From NCBI GenBank assembly GCA_000165345.1, contig CM000435.1:320001-384000 (forward strand): DNA of 64,000 nt. The letters run 5' to 3'. The position numbers and the translations under genes are program-made. The notes under the pieces were generated by a model. That model had not been told where the DNA came from. It did not search any database and saw nothing but the letters and a program-made list of their open reading frames with translations. Of the stretch, positions 13,347-28,836 are shown one piece after another. Position 1 is the stretch's first letter, and every line of letters starts with the position of its first letter.

Positions 13347-13910
13347 ATGAGATTCTATTTATTTTTTTTCGCTCTTTTAGTCTTCTTCGTTGCTACCAAT
13401 GCAGTAAGAATTAGAGGTGGTGAACAAAACAAACTTGAATCCGAAACACCTGAAGAAACTACTACTACCACCACAACCACAGCTCAGCCAGACTCTACTT
13501 CTGACGAAGATACCACTACCACTACTACTACTACTACCACTACTACTACTACTACTACTACCACCACTACTACTACTGAAGCTCCAGAACCTGTCGAAAC
13601 CAAAGAGGGTGAAGAGACTGACGAAAACACTGACGAAACTACTACCACTACTACTACTGCATCTCCAAAGCCTAAATCTCCATCATATAAAGACAGACTC
13701 CTCTCATTCTTCGGCAGTAATGGCGGCAGTATGTTCGGTCTCGGAAAGAGCAGCACTACTACTACTACTACTACTGCCCCTGTTTCCTCTGAGGATAATA
13801 AGCCAGAAGATTCTGAGGACGAAAAAGAGTCAGAATCTGAGAGTGATTCCTCAAACGAAGGTTCTTCAAATTCGGAGGATTCTGAGGAGAAGACCAGGAA
13901 AACTGAATAA
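13347..13910 (+). CDS. Small secreted mucin-like Thr-rich glycoprotein with acidic Ser-rich C-terminal tail
   Basis: The track ORF begins at TTG 13320; the first ATG is at 13347. The product starts MRFYLFFFALLVFFVATNAVRIRGG, a signal peptide. It has uninterrupted Thr runs (T8, T23, T7, T7) typical of O-glycosylated mucin domains. The tail is SEDNKPEDSEDEKESESESDSSNEGSSNSEDSEE. Confidence 0.8.
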   Translation: MRFYLFFFALLVFFVATNAVRIRGGEQNKLESETPEETTTTTTTTAQPDSTSDEDTTTTTTTTTTTTTTTTTTTTTTEAPEPVETKEGEETDENTDETTTTTTTASPKPKSPSYKDRLLSFFGSNGGSMFGLGKSSTTTTTTTAPVSSEDNKPEDSEDEKESESESDSSNEGSSNSEDSEEKTRKTE

Positions 13911-14717
13911 AATCATTAGCAAGCTATTCCACAGATTTGGGATAGATCCCATGGTATTTTATCTTGATTTCTCTCAAATCTGGCTGGTGAAATTTTTGTA
14001 TTTATAGTCTGTTTTTCTGTGAGGTTACAGCCCCTGCTAATTTTTAATTTCATTTATTTATCCGGTTTTTAACAAGTGTCGTAACATCTCCCCCTGAAGG
14101 TTAAGTATTTGTTCTTTTATAATGGTTTTTAGTTGCTGTTGTAGACTGAATTTTTGTTTTGTGGTCATCCGTCTTTAATCATCTGAATGTTTGTGTATAG
14201 TGTGCTGTTGCGTTTATAGGCCAATTTTTTCTTCAAATTAACCTTGAATCTATGATTCATCCTGTCTTTATTCTCAAAATCTCTCTTTTATTCATTTTGT
14301 TTTACTGCCTTTCTATTCTACCTGTTTTTCCTAACTATCATTTCTCCGATACTATTTCATTCATTTAACACCGGTACCATATGTGTACATTTCCCGCCTA
14401 AACCCTCAACCTGTAAATTACATGTAAATAATGCATTTGCACTAAAATAGTAAAGAATATAATTGCTTATTGCTATTAAAGAGAGTGATCGAATTTGGGG
14501 ATAAAATTAGTTTTAATTATAGAAGCATTGATATTGTCTAAATTTAAATACAAAATTATATTAAAGTAAAAGAATGGCATGGCTCGTATGAAAAAAGTGA
14601 GGGATTCCAAAGGAATTAAAGATATGGTTAAAAAAAAGATATAGAATAAAAGAGGGATAAAAGAGATCCATTTCTCTTATTTTAAGAAGTTTTGTGATTT
14701 TAAATAAAGTTTTTGAT

Positions 14718-16457
14718 ATGCTGAGATTTTTCTTGAATTTTGTAATTACATTCTTGTCATTAAGCTTTATTATTAATCAAGCTTATTGCATTAGAGTTGA
14801 ACCAAGAGTGACTAGTCTTTTAAATACTCCAATAAATGAAAACATCAGTGAGAGTCAATCTTGTGTGTTACAAACATTGAAAGAGTTAGTATCATCTAAT
14901 GGAAGAATTCCACCCAAAATTACTAAAAAAAGAATTCAACAAGCTGTACTTACTTGCAGGAAGAAGTTAGCTGCATGTGAATATCCAACCATAGCAGAAG
15001 AAACAATATTTATAACTTTAGGCCAATATGGACATCTATCTCAAATAGATACAGTTAAAGCTTTAAGTTTTATTAATGAAATTCAAAAAGGAATAACAAG
15101 TACTGTTGGATCTTATACACGTATGTATAAGTTAAGTCAAAACAATAATTTCTGTAAGCTATATGATGACTTTATCTTATCGGCTTATCCAAAAGAGTAT
15201 TATGTTTCATTTCTTCCAGAAGGTGGAGAAAGATGTCAGGAATTACTTAATAGATTAAAACAAAATGCATTCTATTCGTATTGGGGACAAGGAGGAATTG
15301 TAGCAGACCAAGCTCAACCAATTGTTGATGATAAGGTTTCAAATGACCCAATTAAAACCAAGGATATGGTTATAAATAATATTTTTGAAAATCCTCCAAA
15401 CAAAGAAACTCAAATAGAGGAATTTTCTAAGCCTGAAAGTGAAACCAATAATAAAACTGATTATAATAATGAAAATGAATATGAAAATGTTATTCATACC
15501 AAACAAGAAATCGACCATTTTGAACAAGAAATTGTGGAAGATTCCGGATGTTGTTCTTGTTGTTCTTGTTCATCTAAAAGGACAAAAACCAAGAAAGGAG
15601 AGAATAGTCAACCTCCAAAATTGGTTGACAGTTCTATGACTGAGGAAGAGTTAGAGTTGATTCGACTTGAACAAGAACTTGAGAAGGAGAATTCTGGTTG
15701 TTGTTCTTGTTCTAGTTCCAATAAAAAAAAGAAAGAAAAGAAACAAGTTAATGGGAATGAAATGTCAAATGATATTCTCCAAGATGGAATTATTAATAAT
15801 GAATTGAAAATGCACGAAGATAATAAAAATGAAGAAGACAATTCTTGTTGTGCCTCTTGTAGCTCAAAGAAGGAGAAAAAAAGCAAAACAAAAAATAAAG
15901 AAAAGGAAGTACAGAATGGTGAGACACAAAGAATGGATGAACAAACTCCCAAAACACTCGTTGAGACTTCTATGACTGAGGAAGAGTTAGAATTGATTCG
16001 ACTTGAACAAGAACTTGAGAAGGAGAATTCTGGTTGCTGTTCTTGTTCTAGTTCCAATAAAAAAAAGAGTAAAAATGAGAAAAAAGATAAAAAACAGAAA
16101 AAGGGTAAAGATGAACAGGACAAAAAGGAAGAAAAGTTTGATCAACTACTAGAAGAGCAACAGGAGGGTGAGGAACCAATTGAGGGAAACAAAAAAAGTA
16201 AAAAAGATAAAAAAGCCAAAAAAGATAAAAAGGATAAAAAAAGCAAAAAGAGTAAGAAAGATGAAAATGGAGTCCTAGTCAATTCTTTGCCTGAAGATAA
16301 AATGGAAGGTAAGAAATCAAGTTGTTGTTCAAGCTCTTGTAGTAGTAGCAGTGATAAAGCATCTGATGAAGAGTTAAAGGAGTTAGCTGAGTTGGAGAAG
16401 AGACTTCAAGAGGAAGAAGAAATGCTCCTCCAAAAAAAAAACGGGTTAAAAACATGA
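14718..16457 (+). CDS. Secreted repeat protein with Cys-cluster motifs (GCCSCCSC/CCSCSSS), a duplicated ~35-aa unit and a Lys-rich tail
   Basis: The track start 14694 is GTG; the first ATG is at 14718 (MLRFFLNFVITFLSLSFIINQAYC, a signal peptide). The unit SMTEEELELIRLEQELEKENSGCCSCSSSNKKK occurs twice. CC-S-CC clusters occur five times. The C-terminus has K-rich runs (KKDKKAKKDKKDKKSKKSKK). Confidence 0.7.
   Translation: MLRFFLNFVITFLSLSFIINQAYCIRVEPRVTSLLNTPINENISESQSCVLQTLKELVSSNGRIPPKITKKRIQQAVLTCRKKLAACEYPTIAEETIFITLGQYGHLSQIDTVKALSFINEIQKGITSTVGSYTRMYKLSQNNNFCKLYDDFILSAYPKEYYVSFLPEGGERCQELLNRLKQNAFYSYWGQGGIVADQAQPIVDDKVSNDPIKTKDMVINNIFENPPNKETQIEEFSKPESETNNKTDYNNENEYENVIHTKQEIDHFEQEIVEDSGCCSCCSCSSKRTKTKKGENSQPPKLVDSSMTEEELELIRLEQELEKENSGCCSCSSSNKKKKEKKQVNGNEMSNDILQDGIINNELKMHEDNKNEEDNSCCASCSSKKEKKSKTKNKEKEVQNGETQRMDEQTPKTLVETSMTEEELELIRLEQELEKENSGCCSCSSSNKKKSKNEKKDKKQKKGKDEQDKKEEKFDQLLEEQQEGEEPIEGNKKSKKDKKAKKDKKDKKSKKSKKDENGVLVNSLPEDKMEGKKSSCCSSSCSSSSDKASDEELKELAELEKRLQEEEEMLLQKKNGLKT
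15627..15735 (+). repeat. Copy 1 of an intragenic ~105-bp direct repeat (copy 2 at ~15958-16065)
   Basis: Near-identical nucleotide stretches 'tctatgactgaggaagagttaga(g/a)ttgattcgacttgaacaagaacttgagaaggagaattctggttg(t/c)tgttcttgttctagttccaataaaaaaaag' are seen twice inside the 14718..16457 CDS. Confidence 0.7.
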
Positions 16458-16938: not shown

Positions 16939-19900
16939 CTAAAACTTTGTAAGATTCTTTTCAGAACTTATTAAATCTGAAATATTGGCTATAATTGGCC
17001 ATTTTACATCAAATGCAATAGTTTTGTTTCTATTATATAAAATAGTTGAGTTTGTATTAGGGTTTTCTGACCCTGTATAACTTTCATTATAATCTTTTTT
17101 ATAAAGATGTCCTAAACCTCCAAAAGGTGGATCTTGAGATGGAGGAGGAATTTGGAGGTGATCATTTGTGTAAGATATTAGCTCTTGAGCAAGATTGACT
17201 GAAGTTAAGTTCTTAAATATATTTCTTTCCTTGATAAATAAGTCTAATAACTCTGATGAAATCATTTCTGAAATTGAAATATATTCACCAACAGTGCAAT
17301 TATTGTTGAACTCAATATTAGAATTATTATTAGAATCAATATTAATACATTTTGAAAATTCAGAATTCAAGAATATCTTATTTTTCAATTGGATTATAAA
17401 GTTTAAACTTTGAATAAGGGTAGGAAGAGCTTCATTTGAAATGTTTGACTTATTAATCTCATTAAGTTTTTGAGAAATAAAAGAACAAACATGTTTAACA
17501 AACCAATTAGAACGTCTAACTTCAATTGAAGAATTGTATTTAATCTTAGAAAGAGTATCCACAGCATTATTTAAGGTAAATAATGGATCCAATGATGGTA
17601 TAACCAAATCTTTAATTAGACTTTGTATGTCAGATTTATTCTTTAATTTTTCACTAGAACAGAAATCTGATAATACTTGACTAATTTTCATAAACTTTGC
17701 TCCACTTGTATTATATAAAGTGAATTTATTCAATTCACCAAGTATCTTAAGAATTTCATTATTTCCATAAGGTTGTATAATAATCTTTTCTAATGAGAAA
17801 TTACATATTACTGGTTTTGAATCATTCTTCATTTGAATATTAGCACTATAAGTATTTTTTGGAGTTCTTATAATAGAAATATCATAATCTCTTTTAAATC
17901 TAAATCTTTGAAGGAATTCTAAAGCTCTATATGAAATAAGTATTTGATAAGAATGTGATCTTAAGATACTTTCAATTATTGATAATACAAGAGTAGGATA
18001 TGAAATCCAAACCATAGAAAATACCTCATTTTGAAAGTTGGTTACTTTTGAAACCAAGTTTGAGACACGATGATTTGATGGATTAATCATAAAAAAGACA
18101 TTTTCAGATAAAAGTCCAGTTTGTACAATACTTGAGATTTGTTTTGAAAGATCACTTCTTTTTTCACTTAATGGTAAAAAGTATAAGTTCTTATCAGTAA
18201 CAAAAAGTTCTTCTTTTTCTAAAGTTGAAATTACTCTGGCATGAACCTTTCTAGTATTCAATTTTGAATGGAAAATAAACATCTTAGGAAGAACTGGTAC
18301 AGTTTTCAAACTTATATCATCTTTTAGATCAATTTCTGGATTTAAAATTATATTATCCATATTTCTAATCTTTGATTCTAATTTCCAAAATTCTAAAGCA
18401 TCTTTTTTATGTTTTTCAATCATTGAAACTGCTTCATTATTAAATTTATATGTATATTTTGAAGTATCATTAATTCCAAAGTACCAAAGTACATCATTAA
18501 AAGCAAAAGTATTGTTACTTTGATTAACAAATGTCATATTCATATTTAAAAATAATCTTCCATCAACAATGATCTTGAAAACTGTTTCGTTAGTTAAACT
18601 TTCATCTTGAGTTTGTTTTGAACATAACCATCCCATCGAATTCTGAGTTTCTAAATTTGAAAGATTTGTCTCATTAGAATAAAGTACACAAGGATCTAAG
18701 AATTGAATAAAATCAGAACTGGAATTTTTTAATTGTGTTGAGTTATTATTCTGAATAGTACGAACAATATAGGAAGAAATTGGGCCATCTCTAATAATTT
18801 TTGAGCTTGAGACATTATCACAATCAATTTCTGAACTAAATTTTAAACAAAAGCTGATAATTCTTTGTAAAGCTGCTAAACCCATTAAGTCTATCAAGAT
18901 TTTATCAAATTCTTTTGAGAAAGTATCATTTTGTAATATCATTTCTGATTTAGAATGATTCTTTCCAATCAAATTCTTGTTATTTTCTTCATTTTCAGTA
19001 ACTACTAATTGATTTACTTCTACCCAATCTAAAACATTAGATGGATTTTTTTCTTTAGGAACATCAATTGATCCAAATATTAGCTTATTTTTATCATATT
19101 TTAAGATCTTATCTTTATTTCCATTTCTAGACATATTTGATTTAGAATTGATTACTGATAAATGATTTGAACAAGGAAGTGAATTATGATCCGAAATTTT
19201 TTTAGAATTTGAGTTTACAGTAATACCAATTTCATTATTTGTATTATCAAAATTTTTATTAATATTTGTAAATTTTCGATCAAATGTTTGATTATTAAAT
19301 AGAGCTGACCATTCTCCCCAATATGTTTCATTAATTTTTGTAACAACTGGTAAAAATTCTTGTATTGTTGAAGAAACATTATTAATTGATATATTTAAAG
19401 CTTCATTTTCTTCAATATGACATTTAGTTAAATTTGAAACTCTAAAAAGTTCTCTTAGTTCAGCTTCAATAACACTATCCTCGGATTTTAGTAGAGACGG
19501 ATCAGAATCTGCATGCGATAAATGAAGATAATGACAAACTTTTTTTGAAAATAAAATATTTGATAACCAAGAACAAGGAAGTTGAGATTTTGGAGGTAAT
19601 TTTCTTCCATATTTTAAATGATAATATGAAGTACATGGTTTTAAAACTTCATCATTAGTAATAAGATCAACATATCTATCCCAATTATCAGAATGTATTT
19701 TTAGTTTTTTTAAAATTGAATCTTTGAGTTTGAAAGAATAATCACTAAATTCTGAGATTCTATCAGGATTACTGGAAGTAATCCAATCAGAAACAATGTT
19801 ATTTCCAAAAATAAGATTCTTTGTTTCTTTTAAGAAGAAATCTTGTAAAGTATTTAAAGTTTGAGATAGAGTGTTAGAGATAAGAATAATATTACTAAGT

Positions 19901-21390
19901 AATCTTGCAGAAAATCCTTCAGCATCTGTTAAATATACCGGACATGGATGAGTTCCAACAAGTTTATCAATTGGAACAGGAAAATCTGATTCCTTAAGTT
20001 CAACAGCATCTTCCAAATCAATGATTTTAAGATCTTTGTAGAAATCTATATCAAGTATATCTTTATATGTGAGATTATAAACATTATTTTCAGTTTTGAA
20101 TTGTTTTGAAATATTTACCAAAATATTTCCTTGATGAAAATCACAATGAATTCTAAAAGATCTAAATCTTTTCCACTTTCCTCTTGAAAAATCTTCTAAT
20201 TCTTCTGGATAGAATGATGTTCCTCCTCTATGAAATAGATCCAAAAGATATAATAATCTTCTATAAAGATTTACTGAGAAAATTATTGTTTTATCAGTAT
20301 AATTATTAATCCAAATATTTATAGAATTCTCCAAAAGTCTTGCTTTAGATTCTACATTAATCTTCTCATCTGACCTTAATGAAGGGAACTTGGAGTCATA
20401 GATTCGAATACTTTCTTCTAAGATTGCATTTACTCTATTTTTTAAATAATTTAAGAGATTTGGATAATCAATAAGTTCTGAAATTATTGAAGAAATTGCA
20501 GGACCATCAATAAACTCCATTAATAGAACATTTCTTGAAATCATTTTTCGATTTGGTTGTAAGAATACGCTATATATGGATGGATGAAGCTTAGATTTAG
20601 AAGCACCATATGTACTTGAGGCCATTCTAGAGTAAATGATCAACTCATGATTAAAATGGTAAAGAAAGTCGTTGGTTCTTCCATCAACTTTTGCTACAAT
20701 TTTCAAAGGAAACTTCTTGGCTTTGTTTGAATGAAGGCATCTCACTCTTAGAGATGATTTCTTTCCGAGTTCATAGACACACCCAGTAAATAGTTCAAAT
20801 CTCTCTTTCTTTTCCTTTTCCTCCTTTTCCTTTCCCTCATCTTTTCCCTCTTCTTTTCCCTCCTTCCCTTCCTCTTCTTTACTTTTCTTCCCCTCATCAC
20901 TCTCCTTCCCCTCATCCCTCCCCTCCCCCTCCTCCTCATCCACCTCCTCCACAGGACTCTTTATCATTGCAAAAATTGTCGAAGCTTCCTTTCCTTGAGA
21001 AGATACCAAAAGCTCTCCAGTCGATGAAACTTTTGGACAATCAATTATGCCCGAAAATTCATTACAAAAATCTTTAAGTCTTAATATACTACATTTCTTA
21101 TAAACCTGACTCAAATGTTTATACCTCTTGTAAAAAACCATTGGAGCATACCAAGTATTTTCTTGTCCTTCTGGAATAAAACATAAATTAATTCGCCTCA
21201 ACTTATCCATTGTTACCACTAAACCATCATCTTGAAAACTATTATTCTTTTCCTCTAGTAATACCTCATTCTCGCTCCCATGAAGCCCAAATAACCTTAT
21301 ACTCCCCTCTGCATAAATAGATCTCGTGATCGGGCACAATACCAAGCAAAATGAGTACACCAAATGAAGTATTTTCTTTCTAATCCTCAT
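16939..21390 (-). CDS. Large (1483 aa) signal-peptide protein with a choline-kinase/aminoglycoside-phosphotransferase-like kinase fold and an acidic EGKE low-complexity insert
   Basis: ATG at 21390; the N-terminus MRIRKKILHLVYSFCLVLCPITRSIYAEG looks like a signal peptide. A kinase-like core is present: KIVAKVDGR (beta3 Lys), LLMEFIDGPAI (hinge), IHCDFHQGNILVN (Brenner HxDxxxxN catalytic loop) and KIIDLEDA (ChoK/APH-type 'IDxE' metal-binding motif in place of DFG). The low-complexity segment is EEGKEGKEEGKDEGKEKEEKEKKE. Confidence 0.55.
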   Translation of the reverse strand: MRIRKKILHLVYSFCLVLCPITRSIYAEGSIRLFGLHGSENEVLLEEKNNSFQDDGLVVTMDKLRRINLCFIPEGQENTWYAPMVFYKRYKHLSQVYKKCSILRLKDFCNEFSGIIDCPKVSSTGELLVSSQGKEASTIFAMIKSPVEEVDEEEGEGRDEGKESDEGKKSKEEEGKEGKEEGKDEGKEKEEKEKKERFELFTGCVYELGKKSSLRVRCLHSNKAKKFPLKIVAKVDGRTNDFLYHFNHELIIYSRMASSTYGASKSKLHPSIYSVFLQPNRKMISRNVLLMEFIDGPAISSIISELIDYPNLLNYLKNRVNAILEESIRIYDSKFPSLRSDEKINVESKARLLENSINIWINNYTDKTIIFSVNLYRRLLYLLDLFHRGGTSFYPEELEDFSRGKWKRFRSFRIHCDFHQGNILVNISKQFKTENNVYNLTYKDILDIDFYKDLKIIDLEDAVELKESDFPVPIDKLVGTHPCPVYLTDAEGFSARLLSNIILISNTLSQTLNTLQDFFLKETKNLIFGNNIVSDWITSSNPDRISEFSDYSFKLKDSILKKLKIHSDNWDRYVDLITNDEVLKPCTSYYHLKYGRKLPPKSQLPCSWLSNILFSKKVCHYLHLSHADSDPSLLKSEDSVIEAELRELFRVSNLTKCHIEENEALNISINNVSSTIQEFLPVVTKINETYWGEWSALFNNQTFDRKFTNINKNFDNTNNEIGITVNSNSKKISDHNSLPCSNHLSVINSKSNMSRNGNKDKILKYDKNKLIFGSIDVPKEKNPSNVLDWVEVNQLVVTENEENNKNLIGKNHSKSEMILQNDTFSKEFDKILIDLMGLAALQRIISFCLKFSSEIDCDNVSSSKIIRDGPISSYIVRTIQNNNSTQLKNSSSDFIQFLDPCVLYSNETNLSNLETQNSMGWLCSKQTQDESLTNETVFKIIVDGRLFLNMNMTFVNQSNNTFAFNDVLWYFGINDTSKYTYKFNNEAVSMIEKHKKDALEFWKLESKIRNMDNIILNPEIDLKDDISLKTVPVLPKMFIFHSKLNTRKVHARVISTLEKEELFVTDKNLYFLPLSEKRSDLSKQISSIVQTGLLSENVFFMINPSNHRVSNLVSKVTNFQNEVFSMVWISYPTLVLSIIESILRSHSYQILISYRALEFLQRFRFKRDYDISIIRTPKNTYSANIQMKNDSKPVICNFSLEKIIIQPYGNNEILKILGELNKFTLYNTSGAKFMKISQVLSDFCSSEKLKNKSDIQSLIKDLVIPSLDPLFTLNNAVDTLSKIKYNSSIEVRRSNWFVKHVCSFISQKLNEINKSNISNEALPTLIQSLNFIIQLKNKIFLNSEFSKCINIDSNNNSNIEFNNNCTVGEYISISEMISSELLDLFIKERNIFKNLTSVNLAQELISYTNDHLQIPPPSQDPPFGGLGHLYKKDYNESYTGSENPNTNSTILYNRNKTIAFDVKWPIIANISDLISSEKNLTKF

Positions 21391-22217: not shown

Positions 22218-24232
22218 ATGATTGGGTCAAGAAAATCTAAGGAAGAGTTATACTATAAGATTTCTTTAGTAACAACAATACTTATATTCTGGATTTGTTC
22301 AAGATCTGTAGGTAAGTTGAAATAAAAATAGAAATAAAATAAAACAAAACAAAACAATTCAAATCCCAAATCAACTCTTTAATTTATATATTTGTAGTTT
22401 TATCTATATCTCTCACAACAATATTCTTAGTTTTGTCTTATATTGGAAATAAGTTTGTTTTTGGAACAAAATCTAAATATGAAGAAGATTTACCAAGATT
22501 GATTTCAGATAATGTAATTTTGAAAAAAATCTATGAATTTATTACAAATGGAATTCTTGTTAATTTTGTTTTATCTATTATATATATTACATTATATTTC
22601 ACATTAAGATCAGAAATTAAAGGAATAGAAGTTATTCACAGAGGCATTTTTGATCATTTAGCTCCAAAACTTGCAGAACATTCAAGAAATCTAATAGAAT
22701 CTGGTGAAGGAAAATTTGAAGTTATCTCAAGTAATAGAAATTTTGATGGTATTAGTTTAATTATACCAATTAGAGATGAAGATGAATTTATTAGTAAAAC
22801 AATTTCTTTTACTCTTGGTTTAAATAATAAGAACTTACTTAAAGAAATCATTGTTGTTGATGATTGCTCTAAGAGAGAAGTTTCTGATTTACTTAATAAA
22901 GAACTTCCAAGTTCTTATTTAAAATATATTAAAGTTATTAGATTAGACAAATGTGAAGGTTTAATTAGAAGTCGAATTCTTGGTGCTGATGCTTCTAAAT
23001 CTAGTGTAATAGTATTTATGGATGGTCATTGTAGGCCTAAAGAAAATTGGATTGAACCTTTAATTAATAGACTTAAAGAAAAACCAAAAGCTATAGTTTG
23101 TCCAATGATTGAAGATATAGATAGATATACTTGGAAAGATTTAGGTACTTTTGGATTAAAAATGATGTTTGATTGGAATTTTGAATTTAATTGGTATGAA
23201 GATTTTACTGATGTAATTCCAATAGCATCAGGAGGATTATATGCAATAACAAGAGAATGGTGGGAAGAATCTGGTAAATATGATCCAGGAATGTTAGAAT
23301 GGGGAGGAGAGAATATTGAACAATCAATAAGAATTTGGAGATGTGGAGGAGAAATAGTAGCAGAAAAGAAGAGTAGAGTAGGACATATATTTAAAAGAGA
23401 TCCAAAACCTAATCCAGAGAATAAATTAGTTTTACAAGTACAAAGAAATCAGAAAAGAGCTGCAATGGTTTGGTTAGATAAGAAAAGATATAAATACTTT
23501 GAGACAATTCATGATGTTGTGAAAAGTTTGAATGAAACTCAGAGTGGTGTAGATTTGGAACAAAGACATAGCATTAAAGAAAGATTAAAATGTAAACCAT
23601 TTTCTTGGTATGTTGATAAATTTAGAGCTTCATTTGATAGAGGTGGTTTGCTATTGGATAACTTTAGACATTTTAAACATAGAAAGAGTGGACTTTGTTT
23701 AACAGCTTCTTTAAATGAAGTAGTTACTGGAACAGAAGATAAAGCAGTAGTATTTAAAGAATGTAATGAAAGAGATGATACTCAGAAGTGGAATGTAATA
23801 TTAGGAAGGAGATTAATATTAAATAGAAGAGTAGGATTAGGATGTCTCACAAGGGGACCAAGTAATGTAGTAGAGAATTCAATTTTAAGAGTAGTTCCTT
23901 GTGAATTTAAGAAAGCTTTAGAAGGTTATAATGACTCACAATATTGGAACATAGATGCTAATGATGATTTATTATTTGATCATGGTTATGAAGATTTATC
24001 TCCAATGGAATCTTCAAAGCTTAGAAACTCACTAAGATTGTTTAACAGAATTAATAGTATTCCATTTAGTAATGATGGGAATGATAGAATTTCTGTGAAT
24101 GGAGAATATGCTTTTAATCCATCAAATAGATGTGTCACAAATTTGAATGATAAAGCTGTAATGAAGAGTTGTCCACATGAAGAAAATGAGGACTATATAT
24201 TTGACCCAATAAAGATGGGGAAGTTTATGTAG
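22218..24232 (+). CDS. UDP-GalNAc:polypeptide N-acetylgalactosaminyltransferase (GT27 catalytic domain + C-terminal ricin-B lectin), two-exon model: exon 1 22218..22311, intron 22312..22397, exon 2 22398..24232
   Basis: The catalytic domain has the GT-A DxH-type region (VVDDCS...FMDGHC) and the pp-GalNAc-T Gal/GalNAc-T motif WGGENIEQSIRIWRCGG. A C-terminal beta-trefoil lectin region has Cys pairs and QxW-like repeats (QKWNV, QYWNI). The long ORF has no in-frame ATG before the catalytic domain (the track start 22433 is TTG). An upstream ATG at 22218 encodes MIGSRKSKEELYYKISLVTTILIFWICSRSV, a short tail plus hydrophobic anchor expected for a type II Golgi transferase. It ends at a consensus donor AG|GTAAGT (22312). 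An AT-rich 86-nt intron ends TTTGTAG| at 22397 and restores the downstream frame exactly (phase 1). Confidence 0.75.
22312..22397 (+). other. Predicted 86-nt spliceosomal intron (GTAAGT...TTTGTAG) near the 5' end of the ppGalNAc-T gene
   Basis: The donor gtaagt and the acceptor after a T-rich tract preserve phase between the exon-1 ATG ORF and the catalytic-domain ORF. Confidence 0.6.
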
Positions 24233-24540
24233 AGGAGGTGGGAGGAGTGGATTGGCAGGACTGGGAGAAGAGGATGAGAGAACGAGAGGAAGAGAGGAGA
24301 GGACTGGGAGAAGAGGAGTGGGAAAATAGAGGACGAAAGAAAAGGACGAGAGAATGAGAGGAGAGGACTGAGAGAAGAGGAGTGGGAAAATAGAGGACGA
24401 AAGAAGAGGACGAGAGAATGAGAGGAGAGGACTGGGAGAAGAGGACGAGAGAACGAGAGGAAGAGAGGAGAGGACGAGAGAATGAGAGGAGTACAAAAAC
24501 AGGAAACGAAAAGGAAAGGAAATGAATAGAGGAGTGATAA
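24233..24540. repeat. GA-rich (polypurine on + strand) tandem minisatellite, ~4-5 copies of a ~60-65 bp unit
   Basis: Reiterated 'gagaggagaggactgggagaagaggagtgggaaaatagaggacgaaagaa(g/a)aggacgagagaatgagag' units lie immediately 3' of the ppGalNAc-T stop. The minus-strand ORFs 24122..24496 and 24225..24554 (SSLPLVLSSS..., low complexity) are artefacts of this repeat. Confidence 0.85.
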
Positions 24541-24621
24541 AAGCCGTGAGACAATAGAATTTTAGATATTAAATTAAGATGAGCTAAAATTACTCTTTAT
24601 TAGACAATTCTCTTTGTTTGT

Positions 24622-26184
24622 TTAATTTGCATAAGTTATTGGAAAAAATGACATAAAAGGACAAAAGTCTTTATTTCCACAATTATTTTTAGTTTTAGGT
24701 GAAATCATGGGAGATGAATTTGAATAATAACTTGAAGATTTTGAAACAACCCATGAATGTTTACTTGGATGAATAGTAAAGAAAGGATGTTTTAAAGCAT
24801 CTTTTGGATGTATTCTAAATTTGTAATCCAAAGTAAGAAGTTTTGAAAGTAAATCAAGAGCTTGAACAGTAACTAAATCTTGATTTTCTTGAGTAATTAA
24901 GAAATCAAAAGTTCTTGGATCAGTAAAAATTGGACTTGTTGAATTAAAGATTTTTTTGGTTCTTTTAAGATAAGAAAAAGTAATATCATCAGAAATTGTT
25001 CCATTATATTTATTAGATATAGAAATAATATTATCTCCTCCAAGTAATGAAGCAATTTTAACAATTTGGTCATTATTGTCCCAACCTGGAAAAAGTACAT
25101 CAGGACTTAATGAATTCTTAAGAAAAATACCAACAAATGTTTTTGGATATTTTGTAAATACTCTAGTAAAATAATTGGTCTTTAAAGTACCTAATCTGAA
25201 AAGCATTTGTGAGAATAAACAACCTACTGACCAAGAATCCACAGAATAATCATAATTTCTGATTCCTAAAAGAAGTTCTGGTGCTTTATAATATTTGGAA
25301 GCAACTCTTGGACTAAAATCAGGATCATCTTTTGAATAATATTCTGCTAATCCCCAATCAATAATTTTTAAAGATTCTTTATTTATATCAATTACAATAT
25401 TTTGTGGTTTAATATCTCTATGAAATACTCCTAAAGAATTTGCATAAGAAAGTCCTTGTAATAATTGTCTCATGTAATTTTGAAGATCTATATATGTAAG
25501 TTTTGGAAGAAGTGAATAAAATTGTTCATTATTAATATATTCCATAACAAGTCCAATATGTTTTTTAACACTAATAGATTTTTGATTCAAATTTTTTATT
25601 GGATTATGATATTTAACAATATCTAAAAGTTTTATAATCGAATTTTTCCCTTGTATTTGATCATATAATTGTGAATTTTCTAATAATAATGTTTGATTAA
25701 CATGATTATCAGAATAACCATTAAGTAATTTAAGTATAGAAACTTCTCGAATAATTTTCCATTCTTGTACATTCTTTAATTCTTTTAAAGCAACAGGAAA
25801 ACCTCTAAGAGAACTAATTTGATGATCTGTTAAATTAAGAAAATAAGGATCAATAACAAGTGTTTCTTCTCCAATCTTATTTTTTGTTTCTGGACTTAAA
25901 TCAATTTTCCATGCAAAAAATACATTTGAATATCTTCCTGTTCCTATAGTATTTCCTTTAATATAAAAATTTTTTCTTGAAAGTCGACTCATTTCTAAAA
26001 TATTTTCCAAAGAAGAAAAATCTTCATGACTTTCTACAATATTTCGAGGATGATTTGATTTAGGTATTTTATTATCTTTTTCTTTATTAGTATAATTTTC
26101 ATTATAAGAATGAGAAAGAATAGAAAAAGAAAGTTTTTGAAGAATAACTAACAAAATGTATAATATTAGTAAAATCCTAAACAT
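24622..26184 (-). CDS. Casein kinase 2 alpha-like Ser/Thr protein kinase carrying an N-terminal signal peptide/anchor and ~100-aa N-terminal extension
   Basis: ATG at 26184. The N-terminus MFRILLILYILLVILQKLSFSILSHS is hydrophobic. Kinase motifs match CK2alpha: GTGRYSNVF (Gly loop), VALKELK, HRDIKPQNIVID (CK2: HRDVKPHNVMID), DWGLAEYY (CK2: DWGLAEFY), RVASKYYKAPELLL (CK2: RVASRYFKGPELLV), GWDNNDQIVKIASLLG (CK2: GHDNYDQLVRIAKVLG) and ENQDLVTVQALDLLSKLLTLDYKFRIHPKDALKHPFF (CK2: [37 protein letters not shown]). Confidence 0.75.
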   Translation of the reverse strand: MFRILLILYILLVILQKLSFSILSHSYNENYTNKEKDNKIPKSNHPRNIVESHEDFSSLENILEMSRLSRKNFYIKGNTIGTGRYSNVFFAWKIDLSPETKNKIGEETLVIDPYFLNLTDHQISSLRGFPVALKELKNVQEWKIIREVSILKLLNGYSDNHVNQTLLLENSQLYDQIQGKNSIIKLLDIVKYHNPIKNLNQKSISVKKHIGLVMEYINNEQFYSLLPKLTYIDLQNYMRQLLQGLSYANSLGVFHRDIKPQNIVIDINKESLKIIDWGLAEYYSKDDPDFSPRVASKYYKAPELLLGIRNYDYSVDSWSVGCLFSQMLFRLGTLKTNYFTRVFTKYPKTFVGIFLKNSLSPDVLFPGWDNNDQIVKIASLLGGDNIISISNKYNGTISDDITFSYLKRTKKIFNSTSPIFTDPRTFDFLITQENQDLVTVQALDLLSKLLTLDYKFRIHPKDALKHPFFTIHPSKHSWVVSKSSSYYSNSSPMISPKTKNNCGNKDFCPFMSFFPITYAN

Positions 26185-26326
26185 AATGACTATGGGATCT
26201 CCTTTACATCATTGATTTCTTTCTCCTCTTTAAAAAAAAAGATTCCTATTTTCTCAGTTATATTATTATTATTATTATTATTTTTCATTACTTATAATTT
26301 GAATTGTATGAATATAAAAATGAGGA

Positions 26327-26338
26327 CTTTTGGCGCCT
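26327..26338. promoter_or_regulatory. E2F-like TTTTGGCGCC motif in the 190-bp spacer upstream of the CK2-like kinase start
   Basis: 'gaggacttttggcgcctacatt' lies between 26184 (the start of the minus-strand gene) and 26374. Confidence 0.4.
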
Positions 26339-26373
26339 ACATTTGTATAAAGGTTTTTTACAAGTCAAAAGCA

Positions 26374-28836
26374 TTAAATTGCATTTTTGCTACAACAAGA
26401 AGAAAAAAAGAATTTTTGAGTTTTTAATTTGGTTTTCTCCTTTCTATTTGAAGATAAAAGAGCAGTTTCTGTGTGATTACTTATGGTATTTTGAGAATTT
26501 TTCTTTTGATAAGTTTTTTTACAGTTTATTTGAACTTTTTCTTTTACAAGTTTATTTTTTTTACCTTTATTTTTAGACCAACTGATAATTTTTTCTCTAG
26601 AATGTTTTTTGGCGCCAAAAAATTTGGTATTAGATTTTCTGGAATCTTGTTTTTCTGAGTTAGACAACTTATATTTAGAATTTAAGACTAGTTCATTAGA
26701 GGAAGGGAGGGAGTTTGAAGAAAAATGAGAAGAAGAGTCTTTGAGATCAAGTTGATTGAATTCAATTAATGAGTACTCTAAGCATTTGTGCATTTTTCCC
26801 ACAGAAACCTTTTTATTCATGAGGGAAGACTCATCATTGCAATATTTTTGTTCTTGTTCTTGTTCTTGTTCTGATTTATAAAATGTAGATGAGAAGAGAG
26901 AATTGGAAGATTTGGAGTTTTGTGATTGATTATAATGGTTATTAATGGTTTTTTGGTTATTTTCCGAGTCTTTAAGATATGTCTTGGAGGACTTATTGGA
27001 AGAAATTGGAATATTTTGAATAGTAATAGTACTTCTTTTTCTACTAAAATATCTACTAATGGAAACACTAGTGCTGATTTTCTTGATTAGATTTTGATTT
27101 GACAAAGATTGAAACTTAGTAGGAACTTTAGCTTTATTTTCATGACTGAAAAAATGATTAACATAATTAAATATACTTTGTATATAATATTTAGAATTGT
27201 TATAGTTTTGTTGAACACCAGAGATCATTTGTATAAATATTCCTAAAGAATTAGGTCTCTTAGCTTTAAGTAAAATAAAGGGATGTTTTAAAAGAAAATT
27301 AGCATTTTTTCTTTGATTTGGATCTTTTGTCAAACAAGAGTCAATAAAATCCCAGAATTCTGGTGAAAACAAACCTTTAATTTCTTCTCTCACAGTCTTT
27401 TGAGGAGGAGGAGATCTTAAAATATATTCCAATAATTCTTCTAAAGAATCAAAATTTGGCCAAGGGATCCTCCCAAAAGCTAGTTCTAATACAGTTATTC
27501 CAAGAGACCAAATATCAGAAGCTCCTGGTTCTCCAGTTCCAATTCCAATTCCAGCCCCAGTTTTAGTTTGAATTCTAGTTCCAGACCCCAAAATAATCTC
27601 AGGAGCCATCCAAAAAGGACTTCCTAGTATTTCTTGGTCATTAGAAAAAGGATACATAATATCGTTAACTTTAGTGATTGATTCAGAATCTTCCTGACGA
27701 TTACTTTTTATTTCAGACTTAATTTTCCTAGAAACTCCAAAGTCTGCCAATTTTGCTACACAATTTTCAGTTAGTAAGATATTAGCACTCTTTATATCAT
27801 TATGAAGAATATAGTTTTGAGAATTGGAATGATTTCCATCTTTTCGTCCATGAATTCTTATTAATGCCTTTAATACGTCCTGAGTAACTGAAGCAAGCAA
27901 CTCTTCTGGAAAACTCCCATATTTACTATATAAACCATAAAGTGATCCCCCTTCTGCATATTCCATTAATATGTATAAAAAAGAATCTGAGGAAAAAGTC
28001 ACATAATATTTCAGAATTTGTTCGCAATCTTGTAATTCTGACATTATACTTGTTTCCTTTCTAGCTGTAGCTAGTGGGTCCTCCAATTCTGCTGTGTCAT
28101 TTGCTTCTAAATCCACAATCTTTATAGCTAACTTCTTTCCAACTCCTCCTCCTCCTCCTCCTTTCCTAGCCCATCCTGTTCCTTTTGTTCTTGTTTTAGC
28201 TAAAGATATAGATGCTCTTGGCTCCAGTTTTTCCAGTATCTCCTTTATATCTGAGTCAGTTATCTCAACTGTGATGGAATTTCTACTTTTCTTTTTTCTT
28301 GGACTACATATATCTGCTAATACCACAATCCCATAAGCTCCCATTCCAAGTATATTTGAGATTGAAAAAACTACCAATCTCTGTTCATTACTGCTAATAC
28401 TATTACTATTGCAAATACCTTTATTCCCCTCTTCCTCCTGATTATAGACCACTTCAATCAAATTCCCCACTTTAAATAGTTCTCTCATTCTTCCTCTCTT
28501 TTCTTCTTGGCTCTTTTCTTTTTTTCTTTCGGGAACTACAAATTCAAAAGATTCCAAAGAAGATTTGCCATTTTCTATATAACTTTTTTCTTGTGCTTTC
28601 ACGGATTTTTCTATAGTTTTCCTCTCTCCTTCTACAATCTTCCCGTTTTCTTCTAAAACCTTCCTGTTTTCTTCTAAAGTTTTTTCCTCTTCTTCTAGAA
28701 CTTGCCCCACTCCTTTCTCCTCTTCTTCTAAAGTATTCTCAGCTTTCTCTACTCCTTTTCCATCTTCTCCTATTGTTTCATAGTCATCTTTCTTACTTTC
28801 AACCCCCAAATCTTTATTCTCTCTTGTCAAAGACAT
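26374..28836 (-). CDS. STE20/PAK-family-like Ser/Thr protein kinase (820 aa) with acidic repeat N-terminus and Ser/Asn-rich C-terminal tail
   Basis: ATG at 28836. It has the motifs GMGAYGIVVLA, LAIKIV, HNDIKSANILLTENCVAKLADFGVS and GSPFWMAPEIILG (the STE20 signature GTPxWMAPE). An EEEEK(T/G)LEEN-type repeat lies near the N-terminus. Confidence 0.7.
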   Translation of the reverse strand: MSLTRENKDLGVESKKDDYETIGEDGKGVEKAENTLEEEEKGVGQVLEEEEKTLEENRKVLEENGKIVEGERKTIEKSVKAQEKSYIENGKSSLESFEFVVPERKKEKSQEEKRGRMRELFKVGNLIEVVYNQEEEGNKGICNSNSISSNEQRLVVFSISNILGMGAYGIVVLADICSPRKKKSRNSITVEITDSDIKEILEKLEPRASISLAKTRTKGTGWARKGGGGGGVGKKLAIKIVDLEANDTAELEDPLATARKETSIMSELQDCEQILKYYVTFSSDSFLYILMEYAEGGSLYGLYSKYGSFPEELLASVTQDVLKALIRIHGRKDGNHSNSQNYILHNDIKSANILLTENCVAKLADFGVSRKIKSEIKSNRQEDSESITKVNDIMYPFSNDQEILGSPFWMAPEIILGSGTRIQTKTGAGIGIGTGEPGASDIWSLGITVLELAFGRIPWPNFDSLEELLEYILRSPPPQKTVREEIKGLFSPEFWDFIDSCLTKDPNQRKNANFLLKHPFILLKAKRPNSLGIFIQMISGVQQNYNNSKYYIQSIFNYVNHFFSHENKAKVPTKFQSLSNQNLIKKISTSVSISRYFSRKRSTITIQNIPISSNKSSKTYLKDSENNQKTINNHYNQSQNSKSSNSLFSSTFYKSEQEQEQEQKYCNDESSLMNKKVSVGKMHKCLEYSLIEFNQLDLKDSSSHFSSNSLPSSNELVLNSKYKLSNSEKQDSRKSNTKFFGAKKHSREKIISWSKNKGKKNKLVKEKVQINCKKTYQKKNSQNTISNHTETALLSSNRKEKTKLKTQKFFFSSCCSKNAI
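26605..26622. promoter_or_regulatory. Perfect palindromic E2F-type site TTTTTTGGCGCCAAAAAA embedded in the 3' coding region of the STE20-like kinase gene
   Basis: It is seen directly and encodes FFGAKK on the minus strand. It lies ~420 bp upstream of the start of the next gene. Confidence 0.3.

What the first reader, a model, noticed from the sequence alone, without database searches (positions are those of the whole stretch)
24622..26184. CK2alpha-like kinase with a signal peptide, a candidate lumenal 'casein kinase'
The kinase core aligns motif-for-motif with CK2alpha, including the CK2-specific DWGLAE(F/Y)Y and GxDNxDQ(L/I)V(K/R)IA blocks. Unlike canonical cytosolic/nuclear CK2 it begins with a 26-aa hydrophobic leader and a ~100-aa extension. 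It sits 11 kb from a mucin with a CK2-consensus acidic Ser tail. Canonical CK2alpha should exist elsewhere in the genome, so this would be a divergent secretory paralogue.
Basis: partly seen in the sequence, partly recalled or inferred. Interest (0 to 1): 0.65.

Follow-up and report, generated by a model that had tools for sequence, protein, structure and literature searches.

The report
Signal-peptide-bearing CK2-derived kinase of Cryptosporidium
This is the already annotated C. parvum gene cgd7_1320, a genus-specific, heavily remodelled copy of the kinase CK2-alpha that carries a conserved secretion signal, so it probably works in the parasite's secretory pathway, although nobody has located it or measured its activity.

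Summary
The 520-aa ORF at 24622-26184 (-) is real. It is cgd7_1320 of Cryptosporidium parvum chromosome 7, publicly annotated as 'casein kinase II, alpha subunit'. A 2011 kinome paper already listed it as a second, Cryptosporidium-only CK2; the canonical copy is cgd6_620.

New here:
- **Leader.** It is a classical three-part signal peptide in all 12 orthologues. Its ATG is the only workable start: the next Met is residue 201 in C. muris and 177 in C. bovis.
- **Distribution.** The subfamily is genus-restricted in an exhaustive search of 1.84 billion proteins, and its tree follows the species tree.
- **Catalysis.** All 13 catalytic residues checked are invariant, and the fold is CK2-alpha.
- **Lost CK2 features.** Most of the basic cluster is gone (KKKKIKREIK became QEWKIIREVS). 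The N-terminal EYWDYE clamp is gone. Two hydrophobic CK2-beta pocket residues are now charged (L41K, I69E). There are five conserved internal inserts.

I read it as a stand-alone, probably active, secretory-pathway kinase derived from CK2-alpha, with altered specificity. The 'casein-kinase-like' specificity and the mucin link are not. The '~100-aa extension' is wrong. Localisation and activity are untested. Interest is moderate.

The parts
24622..26184 (-). Complete single-exon CDS of cgd7_1320 (520 aa plus stop)
   Evidence: ORF list. The identical 520-aa gene call appears in three assemblies. The exact protein is EAZ51567.1 of C. parvum Iowa II. The kinome supplement row for cgd7_1320 matches it.
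26113..26184 (-). Predicted cleavable signal peptide, residues 1 to about 24 (n-region MFR, h-region ILLILYILLVIL, c-region QKLSFSILS). Candidate cleavage sites follow S21, S24 or S26.
   Evidence: Rule-based analysis of 12 orthologues gives hydrophobic cores of 8-14 aa, a net positive n-side and -3/-1 small residues. AF2 models residues 2-28 as a helix. No SignalP run was possible.
25969..26112 (-). Variable, mostly disordered linker (residues 25-72). It ends in the conserved SLxxxLE helix that replaces the canonical EYWDYE N-terminal clamp.
   Evidence: Alignments. pLDDT is below 50 for residues 27-44. Clamp residues are not conserved.
24775..25968 (-). CK2-alpha-type protein kinase domain (residues 73-470)
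   Evidence: Pfam, PDB phmmer, AF2 pLDDT 83.4, and Foldseek top 50 all CK2-alpha class with TM about 0.8.
25927..25944 (-). Gly-rich ATP loop GTGRYS (residues 81-86)
   Evidence: G81 and G83 are invariant.
25825..25917 (-). Insert 1 between beta2 and beta3 (residues 90-120, 31 aa). It is conserved within the genus and carries the N117 sequon.
   Evidence: sequon in 7/10 orthologues.
25783..25785 (-). Catalytic beta3 lysine K134 (human K68). The neighbouring E135 replaces the CK2-beta pocket residue I69.
25738..25767 (-). Degenerated CK2 basic cluster, QEWKIIREVS, in place of KKKKIKREIK (residues 140-149)
   Evidence: Among the eight named canonical CK2-alpha sequences the cluster is invariant, from maize and human to Apicomplexa.
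25651..25719 (-). Insert 2 in the alphaC-beta4 loop (residues 156-178). It is variable in length and sequence.
25570..25605 (-). Insert 3 in the beta4-beta5 loop (residues 194-205). This is the loop that contacts CK2-beta in canonical CK2-alpha.
25399..25422 (-). Catalytic loop HRDIKPQN (residues 255-262). Human H160 is Q here.
25351..25359 (-). DWG motif (residues 276-278), the CK2-specific variant of DFG
25276..25308 (-). p+1 loop RVASKYYKAPE (residues 293-303). R191 and K198 are kept, R195 is K and G199 is A.
   Evidence: PMC3227725.
25105..25194 (-). Insert 4 between alphaF and alphaG (residues 331-360, 30 aa). It is highly conserved in the genus (L331, G332, T333, N337, F339, P347, F350 and G352 are invariant).
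   Evidence: pLDDT 57-68.
25051..25086 (-). CK2-type GWDNNDQIVKIA block (residues 367-378)
24916..24951 (-). Insert 5 (residues 412-423), containing the N414 sequon
24625..24774 (-). Disordered Ser-rich C-terminal tail (residues 471-520) with a conserved KDxCP motif. It has no KDEL/HDEL and no GPI-type hydrophobic tail.
26185..26373 (-). 189-bp 5' intergenic region up to the stop codon of cgd7_1330. An in-frame stop lies 8 codons upstream of the ATG, and there is no upstream in-frame start.

Best explanation
cgd7_1320 encodes a stand-alone Ser/Thr kinase that arose from CK2-alpha before the Cryptosporidium species diverged and has been inherited vertically since.

Shown by sequence: it begins with a conserved three-part signal peptide, and no KDEL/HDEL, GPI-type or second hydrophobic segment follows. 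The full catalytic machinery and CK2-type active-site motifs are kept, so it is probably active.

Inferred: the protein is co-translationally inserted into the ER, the leader is cleaved, and the mature kinase of about 57 kDa travels through the secretory system (ER/Golgi lumen, a secretory organelle, or release).

It has dropped the features that tie canonical CK2-alpha to its cytosolic regulation and specificity:
- the CK2-beta docking pocket (L41K, I69E, and an insert in the beta4-beta5 loop);
- the N-terminal EYWDYE clamp;
- five of the seven basic-cluster residues.

It keeps the p+1-loop basic residues and has gained five genus-conserved inserts, one beside the alphaG substrate-docking region.

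Inferred consequence: it acts as a monomer on secretory cargo with a specificity that is no longer the classical S-x-x-E/D. It may still favour an acidic residue at n+1.
For: - Identity and gene model.
- CK2-alpha class: PDB phmmer gives all CK2-alpha at about 1e-46. BLASTP gives 175 bits against Plasmodium CK2-alpha and 106 bits against CDK2. The AF2 model has pLDDT 83.4 and pTM 0.82. The Foldseek top 50 are all CK2-alpha class.
- Catalytic competence: 13 of 13 catalytic residues are invariant in 10 orthologues.
- Signal peptide: in 12 of 12 orthologues the hydrophobic core is 8-14 aa and starts within the first 11 residues, the n-side is net positive, and -3/-1 sites lie downstream, although the sequence itself has diverged.
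- Start codon: an upstream in-frame stop lies 6-10 codons away in three species. The next Met is residue 201 in C. muris and 177 in C. bovis, so no alternative start preserves the N-lobe.
- Loss of CK2 regulatory features.
- Genus restriction and vertical descent: the exhaustive profile search scores 873 and 745 bits for Cryptosporidium, about 200-220 bits for typical single-domain CK2-alpha proteins and at most 288.5. The clade is monophyletic at 100% bootstrap and follows the species tree. Synteny is conserved.
- Transcription: about log2 CPM 5 in sporozoites, lower at 24 and 48 h (PMC6877471 supplements; column order inferred).
- Partly conserved N-glycosylation sequons: N117 in 7/10, N394 in 8/10, N414 in 6/10.
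Against: - There is no experimental localisation, proteomic detection or activity data. The hyperLOPIT and single-cell papers are not held, and other proteome supplements are not held.
- The signal-peptide call is rule-based, not SignalP.
- The protein has no conserved disulfide pattern. Only one non-core Cys is conserved, which is unusual for lumenal or secreted enzymes.
- The sequons are only partly conserved, and Asn is frequent in this AT-rich genome.
- Expression is low.
- A kinase built for a reducing, ATP-rich cytosol would need ATP supply in the lumen.
- The leader's 19-residue Kyte-Doolittle score (1.7-2.4) does not by itself exclude a membrane anchor.
Confidence: 0.55

Rival explanations
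1. Exported effector kinase. The signal peptide routes the protein into dense granules, small granules or the rhoptry. It is then released at the host-parasite interface or into the enterocyte, where it phosphorylates host or interface proteins. This would parallel the ROP/GRA kinases of Toxoplasma, the FIKK kinases of Plasmodium and the long-standing proposal for Theileria CK2-alpha.
For: The same signal-peptide evidence applies. There is no ER-retention or membrane-anchor signal, so default secretion is expected. The transcript is relatively enriched in sporozoites, the stage that carries pre-loaded secretory organelles. Loss of CK2-beta dependence suits a kinase working away from parasite cytosol. 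Theileria CK2-alpha also has a hydrophobic N-terminus plus an extension.
Against: Transcript abundance is very low compared with known secreted effectors. No export motif or organelle-targeting element was identified. No proteomic evidence was available. Nothing separates this reading from lumenal residence in silico.
Confidence: 0.2
2. N-terminal membrane anchor with a cytosolic kinase domain. The leader is an uncleaved signal anchor that tethers the kinase to the cytosolic face of ER or another membrane.
For: The 19-residue Kyte-Doolittle maxima of 1.7-2.4 exceed the usual 1.6 transmembrane threshold. AF2 models residues 2-28 as one continuous helix. In C. felis and C. bovis the C-side flank carries as much positive charge as the N-side, or more. 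The lack of conserved disulfides fits a cytosolic domain.
Against: The strictly hydrophobic cores are only 8-14 residues and are followed by polar, small-residue c-regions with -3/-1 sites in all 12 orthologues. In most species the n-side is more positive than the C-side, which predicts N-in/C-out topology. The loss of CK2-beta docking and the clamp would remain unexplained.
Confidence: 0.1
3. Ordinary cytosolic or nuclear second CK2-alpha isoform. Under this reading the hydrophobic N-terminus has no targeting role, or is an annotation artefact with the true start at Met65.
For: The public annotation simply says 'casein kinase II, alpha subunit'. Many eukaryotes have two CK2-alpha isoforms. 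C. parvum, C. hominis and C. tyzzeri do have Met65 just before the kinase domain.
Against: Met65 is not conserved. C. muris and C. bovis have no Met before residues 201 and 177. The leader's hydrophobic character is maintained while its sequence diverges. The basic cluster, clamp and CK2-beta pocket, all invariant in the eight named canonical CK2-alpha sequences, are lost. Core identity to canonical CK2-alpha is only about 37%.
Confidence: 0.07
4. Mitosomal presequence. The leader imports the kinase into the relict mitochondrion.
For: The N-terminal location of the signal is compatible with it.
Against: The leader is an uninterrupted aliphatic core with a single basic residue. It is not an amphipathic Arg/Ser-rich helix.
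Confidence: 0.02

Closest known systems
Canonical protein kinase CK2 catalytic subunit (CK2-alpha; C. parvum cgd6_620, PfCK2-alpha, human CSNK2A1)
   Same: Same fold, with best sequence and structure matches. All catalytic residues are shared, as are DWG in place of DFG, the CMGC-Lys K198, the GxDNxDQ(L/I)VKIA block and R191/K198 of the p+1 loop.
   Different: It has a signal peptide. Five of the seven basic-cluster residues are lost. The EYWDYE clamp is lost. The CK2-beta pocket carries L41K and I69E. H160 is Q. There are five internal inserts and a C-terminal tail. Core identity is about 37%. It is not the orthologue, which is cgd6_620.
Theileria CK2-alpha with an N-terminal signal-peptide-like extension (T. 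annulata P0025, T. orientalis P0026). The T. parva enzyme was described by ole-MoiYoi et al. 1992/1993, which I recall from memory because the paper is not held.
   Same: A CK2-alpha-type kinase in an apicomplexan with a hydrophobic N-terminal segment followed by a non-conserved extension.
   Different: The Theileria protein is that organism's canonical CK2-alpha. It keeps the basic cluster KKKKIKREIK, the EYWDYE clamp and the CK2-beta pocket, has no internal inserts, and groups with other piroplasm and canonical CK2-alpha sequences. The resemblance is an independent analogy, not orthology.
Fam20C and related metazoan secretory-pathway kinases (the genuine Golgi casein kinase; PMC5374408)
   Same: The proposed logic is the same: a kinase that enters the secretory pathway and phosphorylates secreted proteins.
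   Different: The fold and ancestry are unrelated. This protein is a CMGC/CK2 kinase, not a Fam20 kinase. Lumenal residence and S-x-E specificity are untested here.
Apicomplexan secreted kinase families (Toxoplasma ROPK/WNG, Plasmodium FIKK); the comparison rests on my own knowledge
   Same: Parasite kinases with signal peptides that act outside the parasite cytosol, and lineage-restricted expansions.
   Different: They derive from different kinase groups. cgd7_1320 is single-copy, CK2-derived and restricted to Cryptosporidium.

Membership tests
CK2-alpha (CMGC/CK2 catalytic subunit) | Complete eukaryotic protein kinase catalytic residues (Gly loop, K68, E81, HRD, N161, D175, APE) | tested here: met
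   13 of 13 are invariant in 10 orthologues.
CK2-alpha (CMGC/CK2 catalytic subunit) | CK2 signature motifs: DWG instead of DFG, Lys in place of the CMGC-Arg before APE, and the GxDNxDQLVKIA block | tested here: met
   DWG is at 276-278, K300 is present, and GWDNNDQIVKIA is at 367-378. The kinome paper makes the same point about the Lys. The glycine after the Lys is Ala here. That is also common in the canonical set (A 53, G 46).
CK2-alpha (CMGC/CK2 catalytic subunit) | Closest sequence and structure relatives are CK2-alpha rather than other CMGC kinases | tested here: met
   PDB top 60 are all CK2-alpha. BLASTP gives 175 bits against PvCK2-alpha and 106 bits against CDK2. Foldseek top 50 are all CK2-alpha class.
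CK2-alpha (CMGC/CK2 catalytic subunit) | Basic cluster K74-K83 at the start of alphaC (acidophilic n+3 recognition, heparin and CK2-beta acidic-loop binding) | tested here: not met
   The sequence is QEWKIIREVS, and only K77 and R80 are retained.
CK2-alpha (CMGC/CK2 catalytic subunit) | N-terminal segment (EYWDYE) that clamps the activation segment and alphaC | tested here: not met
   The aligned residues are D-F-S-S-L-E and variable, with no W24, D25 or Y26 equivalents. Whether the SLxxxLE helix substitutes for the clamp is unknown.
CK2-alpha (CMGC/CK2 catalytic subunit) | Hydrophobic CK2-beta docking pocket on the N-lobe (L41, F54, V67, I69, V101, A110; list from memory of the holoenzyme structures) | tested here: not met
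   L41 is K in 10/10 and I69 is E in 10/10. In the canonical set these positions are I/V/L in 94 and 95 of 105 sequences. There is also a 12-aa insert in the beta4-beta5 loop. Actual binding was not tested.
CK2-alpha (CMGC/CK2 catalytic subunit) | Orthology to the universal eukaryotic CK2-alpha | tested here: not met
   The orthologue in C. parvum is cgd6_620. The cgd7_1320 clade is separate, on a long stem. No full-length match exists outside the genus.
CK2-alpha (CMGC/CK2 catalytic subunit) | Acidophilic S/T-x-x-E/D substrate specificity and use of both ATP and GTP | not testable with these tools
   This needs recombinant enzyme and peptide arrays.
Secretory-pathway protein (cleavable signal peptide) | Three-part N-terminal signal: a positive n-region, a 7-15-aa h-region and a c-region obeying the -3/-1 rule | tested here: met
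   Met in 12 of 12 orthologues by rule-based scoring. SignalP was not available.
Secretory-pathway protein (cleavable signal peptide) | The leader is part of the translated protein (correct start codon) | tested here: met
   It is the first in-frame ATG after an upstream stop in three species, and the next Met falls inside the kinase domain in C. muris and C. bovis. Gene callers agree.
Secretory-pathway protein (cleavable signal peptide) | Lumenal or extracellular localisation, glycosylation or disulfides | tested here: inconclusive
   Three sequons are conserved in 6-8 of 10 orthologues, and there is no conserved disulfide pair. No localisation data were accessible.
Fam20C-type Golgi casein kinase | Fam20/four-jointed kinase fold | tested here: not met
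   The fold is ePK/CK2.

The most novel reading that the evidence does not exclude
cgd7_1320 is the resident secretory-pathway kinase of Cryptosporidium. On this reading, a CK2-alpha copy was captured by a signal peptide and freed from CK2-beta, and it now generates much of the phosphorylation on secreted mucins, granule proteins and interface proteins. It would fill the role that Fam20C plays in animals and that ROPK/WNG kinases play in Toxoplasma. This would be an independent invention of a lumenal 'casein kinase' from the very enzyme that was historically misnamed one.
Probability: 0.18. Interest if true: 0.75.

Novelty: new variant of a known kind. Interest (0 to 1): 0.45.

Why it matters
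To my knowledge (not tested here), Cryptosporidium lacks the rhoptry-kinase family that dominates secreted phosphorylation in Toxoplasma. How its many secreted mucins and interface proteins are modified is poorly known. A genus-specific, probably active, signal-peptide-bearing kinase is a concrete and genetically testable candidate for that role, and a parasite-specific enzyme with an altered active-site neighbourhood. It is also a clean evolutionary example of a conserved cytosolic holoenzyme subunit being re-tooled for another compartment, by gaining a signal peptide and losing its regulatory-subunit pocket and specificity cluster. The value is tempered because the gene is already annotated and was listed as a Cryptosporidium-only CK2 in 2011, and because everything about location and activity is still inference.

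Tried and rejected
- **Retrieving the full canonical cgd6_620 sequence for a same-genome comparison.** A search with the Theileria CK2-alpha core returned only the 120 best of 6483 near-identical CK2-alpha hits, with no Cryptosporidium entry. A 44-aa cgd6_620 fragment taken from the kinome supplement retrieved only short fragments. The phylogeny therefore lacks the Cryptosporidium canonical copy.
- **Localisation and proteomic evidence.** The hyperLOPIT paper (Guerin 2023) and the single-cell atlas (Walzer 2024) are not held. The supplements of the 2026 phosphoproteome and the 2025 secretome papers are not held. Full-text searches for cgd7_1320, for CPATCC_003293 and for secreted or signal-peptide casein kinase in Cryptosporidium found only the 2011 kinome paper.
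- **The Theileria parva CK2-alpha paper.** It could not be read, so that precedent rests on memory plus direct inspection of P0025 and P0026.
- **Hymenolepis proteins.** They were the top non-Cryptosporidium hits and might have been orthologues. I rejected that because they are tandem double-kinase proteins whose score sums two domains.
- **First AF2 run.** With an 11-sequence alignment it was poor (pLDDT 59.6). I replaced it with a 115-sequence alignment.
- **GPI anchor and ER retention.** Rejected because there is no KDEL/HDEL and no long C-terminal hydrophobic stretch.
- **Functional linkage to the adjacent GalNAc-transferase or the mucin through gene order.** The order is conserved in C. 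muris and C. bovis. This is uninformative, because Cryptosporidium genomes are generally syntenic (own knowledge).
- **The kinase-like motif in the 1483-aa neighbour.** It had no Pfam or PDB sequence match.
Full report
**What is there.** The window is Cryptosporidium parvum chromosome 7. The ORF at 24622-26184 (minus strand, 520 aa, ATG start) is called as the same single-exon gene in three public assemblies. Its exact sequence is EAZ51567.1, 'casein kinase II, alpha subunit [C. parvum Iowa II]'. The kinase-domain row for cgd7_1320 in the supplement of 'The Cryptosporidium parvum Kinome' (PMC3227725) is identical to it. The neighbour order matches cgd7_1310 and cgd7_1330: a GalNAc-transferase at 22433-24232 (+) and an 820-aa kinase at 26374-28836 (-). 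That paper already records two CK2-type kinases in C. parvum. One is cgd6_620, the orthologue of PfCK2-alpha. [quoted passage not shown]'. So the gene, its CK2 label and its genus-specificity are known. The paper's main text never uses the words 'signal peptide' or 'secreted'. No other held paper mentions the gene in its main text.

**Checking the observation.** The kinase core is unambiguously CK2-alpha-like.
- Pfam Pkinase scores 2.2e-38.
- The 60 best PDB sequence matches are all CK2-alpha at about 1e-46.
- BLASTP gives 175 bits and 36% identity to Plasmodium CK2-alpha.
- An AlphaFold2 model built on a 115-sequence alignment is confident (pLDDT 83.4, pTM 0.82).
- Its 50 best Foldseek matches in the PDB are all CK2-alpha-class structures, with TM about 0.8 on the target.

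The hydrophobic leader is real. The mucin-like ORF at 13320-13910, with a signal peptide, poly-Thr and an acidic Ser tail, lies 10.7 kb away.

The one descriptive error is the '~100-aa extension'. The Gly-rich loop sits at residues 81-86. The extra 185 residues relative to canonical CK2-alpha come from several sources:
- the leader of about 24 aa;
- a linker of about 48 aa;
- five internal inserts of 31, 23, 12, 30 and 12 aa;
- a tail of about 40-50 aa.

**Is the leader genuine, and is it a signal peptide?** In all 12 orthologues the N-terminus has the same architecture, although its sequence has diverged. The 12 are C. parvum, C. hominis, C. tyzzeri, C. meleagridis, chipmunk genotype I, C. 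ubiquitum, C. felis, C. bovis, C. muris and three unnamed assemblies. The architecture is:
- a short, net-positive n-region;
- an uninterrupted hydrophobic core of 8-14 residues;
- a polar c-region with small residues obeying the -3/-1 rule 4-10 residues downstream.

Cores of that length are typical of cleavable signal peptides and short for a stable membrane span.

The aligned residue is I, K, V, Q or A elsewhere. In C. muris and C. bovis the next in-frame Met is residue 201 and 177. Starting there would delete the Gly loop, the catalytic Lys and helix alphaC. In all three species examined, the leader ATG is the first start codon after an in-frame stop 6-10 codons upstream.

A mitosomal presequence is unlikely, because the leader is aliphatic with a single basic residue rather than an amphipathic Arg-rich helix. 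There is no KDEL/HDEL, no GPI-type C-terminus and no second hydrophobic segment. I could not run SignalP, so this remains a rule-based call.

Supporting marks of a lumenal life are weak. Three N-glycosylation sequons are conserved in 6-8 of 10 orthologues. There is no conserved disulfide pair.

**What kind of CK2 is it?** I audited residues against 105 other CK2-alpha sequences (human numbering, human sequence from memory, checked against database sequences).
- **Catalysis.** All 13 catalytic positions are invariant in the paralogue, so it is probably active.
- **Basic cluster.** Among the eight named canonical sequences, from maize and human to Apicomplexa, the cluster KKKKIKREIK is invariant. 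In the wider, partly divergent set, Lys or Arg still predominates at each position. Here it reads QEWKIIREVS (K74Q, K75E, K76W, K79 to I/L/V, K83S). Only K77 and R80 survive.
- **p+1 loop.** The basic residues persist: R191 is kept, R195 is K, and K198 is kept.
- **CK2-beta pocket.** Two hydrophobic pocket residues are charged in 10/10 orthologues, L41K and I69E. In the canonical set these positions are I/V/L in 94 and 95 of 105 sequences. The beta4-beta5 loop that contacts CK2-beta carries a 12-aa insert.
- **N-terminal clamp.** The EYWDYE clamp is absent.
- **Other changes.** H160 is Q, and the gatekeeper F113 is M.
- **Inserts.** The 30-aa insert between alphaF and alphaG is strongly conserved within the genus (eight invariant residues). 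It lies next to the alphaG docking region, which suggests a new interaction surface.

By established CK2 biochemistry, the basic cluster reads acidic residues at n+3 and beyond, and the p+1-loop basics read n+1. This is my own knowledge of the Pinna-group mutagenesis work, not tested here. On that basis these changes predict a monomeric enzyme that no longer pairs with CK2-beta and whose classical S-x-x-E/D preference is weakened.

**Distribution and origin.** An exhaustive HMM search used the 10-sequence subfamily profile against 1.84 billion representatives. Only two proteins matched full-length in one stretch, both Cryptosporidium (873 and 745 bits). Typical single-domain proteins scored about 200-220 bits, the level of ordinary CK2-alpha, and the highest reached 288.5. 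A 1918-aa protein with 14 matched stretches and the tandem Hymenolepis kinases score higher only by summing stretches.

A neighbour-joining tree (306 columns, 100 bootstraps, CDK2 outgroup) recovers the 12 paralogues as one clade at 100% support. Its internal topology follows the species tree, with C. muris basal. The clade sits on a long stem outside all canonical CK2-alpha sequences. That placement is probably a long-branch effect. It cannot be resolved without the Cryptosporidium canonical copy, which I failed to retrieve.

The local gene order is identical in C. muris and C. bovis: kinase, CK2-like, GalNAc-T, then a large signal-peptide protein.

**Expression.** In the supplements of Tandel et al. 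2019 (PMC6877471), cgd7_1320 appears in the sporozoite/24 h/48 h cluster table with log2 CPM of about 5.1, 2.0 and 3.2. It is also listed in the sporozoite-enriched sheets. I inferred the column order from the sample sheet. In the same table the canonical cgd6_620 is about 10.3, 6.0 and 5.8. The gene is transcribed, but at a low level.

**Interpretation.**
- **Best supported (confidence about 0.55).** This is a stand-alone, probably active, CK2-alpha-derived kinase that enters the secretory pathway through a cleavable signal peptide. It has shed CK2-beta dependence and most of the acidophilic cluster.
- **Final destination.** Sequence cannot tell whether it stays in the ER/Golgi lumen, is packed into a secretory organelle, or is released to the host interface. 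I list the exported-effector version as the main rival (0.2).
- **Membrane anchor with a cytosolic domain (0.1).** This is disfavoured by the short cores and the charge distribution, but it is not excluded.
- **Ordinary cytosolic isoform or mis-annotated start (0.07).** This conflicts.
- **Mitosomal targeting (0.02).**

It is not supported as stated. The residues that create the CK2 consensus are the ones that have been lost. The distance between the genes carries no information in a genome that is syntenic across the genus.

**Comparison with known systems.** It works like, and descends from, CK2-alpha. It fails four family-defining tests: the basic cluster, the clamp, the CK2-beta pocket and orthology. 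It is therefore best called a CK2-alpha-derived, genus-specific paralogue rather than 'the alpha subunit of CK2'.

The nearest analogy is Theileria CK2-alpha. It also starts with a hydrophobic segment followed by a 95-aa extension. However, it is the canonical enzyme with every CK2 hallmark intact, and it groups with the piroplasm CK2-alpha sequences.

Functionally, the proposed role resembles Fam20C, the true Golgi casein kinase (PMC5374408), and the secreted kinase families of other Apicomplexa. Those have unrelated folds or ancestry.

**Verdict.** The gene is already annotated and was published as a Cryptosporidium-only CK2. The following points were not found in the searchable literature:
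- the conserved signal peptide;
- the proof that it is the only workable start;
- the loss of the CK2-beta pocket, clamp and basic cluster;
- the genus restriction at the scale of 1.84 billion proteins.

I rate it a new variant of a known kind, of moderate interest (0.45). It offers a clear and cheap experimental path: tagging, plus look-up of existing spatial proteomics.

Noticed in passing
window 16939-21390 (-): A 1483-aa ORF with a signal-peptide-like N-terminus (MRIRKKILHLVYSFCLVLCPITRSIYAEG) and very many NxS/T sequons. It contains a kinase/APH-like catalytic motif, 'RIHCDFHQGNILVN ... LKIIDLEDAVE'. It is conserved in position in C. muris (1348 aa) and C. bovis (1460 aa). No Pfam family matched above threshold, and residues 231-530, taken to span the motif, gave no PDB sequence match. 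It could be a second secretory kinase-like protein.
   Followed up: partly
window 13320-13910 (+): A 196-aa mucin-like ORF with a signal peptide, long poly-Thr runs and an acidic Ser-rich tail (SSEDNKPEDSEDEKESESESDSSNEGSSNSEDSEE). The tail holds 6 S/T-x-x-D/E sites and 3 S-x-E sites.
   Followed up: partly
window 14694-16457 (+): A 587-aa ORF with a signal-peptide-like start, repeated 'SGCCSCSSS' Cys/Ser clusters separated by 'MTEEELELIRLEQELEKEN' repeats, and Lys-rich KKDKK stretches. It had no Pfam match.
   Followed up: no
window 24277-24491 (intergenic, between the convergent GalNAc-T and cgd7_1320): A purine-rich tandem repeat with a 64-bp unit, 3.4 copies and 89% matches. The gap between the two genes differs by 171 bp between two C. 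parvum assemblies (390 bp in L001, 219 bp in L002), so the array is probably length-polymorphic. It also explains the spurious low-complexity antisense ORFs at 24122-24554.
   Followed up: partly
window 22433-24232 (+): A polypeptide GalNAc-transferase (Glycos_transf_2 plus a ricin B lectin domain), tail-to-tail with the kinase gene. Public gene models are 631-642 aa against a 599-aa ORF, which implies a short 5' exon or intron. The adjacency is conserved in C. muris and C. bovis.
   Followed up: partly
window 26374-28836 (-): An 820-aa protein kinase, by position cgd7_1330, ends only 189 bp upstream of the cgd7_1320 start codon. In C. muris the gap is 63 bp. This leaves a very short promoter region, or raises the possibility of co-transcription.
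   Followed up: no
database proteins P0010, P0011 (Hymenolepis) and P0333 (1918 aa): The tapeworm proteins consist of two tandem divergent CK2-like kinase domains. An unnamed 1918-aa protein gave 14 matched stretches to the profile. These odd CK2-derived multi-domain architectures are unrelated to the finding.
   Followed up: no
database proteins P0025, P0026, P0131, P0132, P0135 (piroplasm CK2-alpha): All piroplasm canonical CK2-alpha proteins carry N-terminal extensions of 60-110 aa. The Theileria ones begin with a hydrophobic, signal-peptide-like core, and the Babesia ones are much less hydrophobic. I did not examine whether this reflects secretion, apicoplast targeting or gene-model error.
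   Followed up: no
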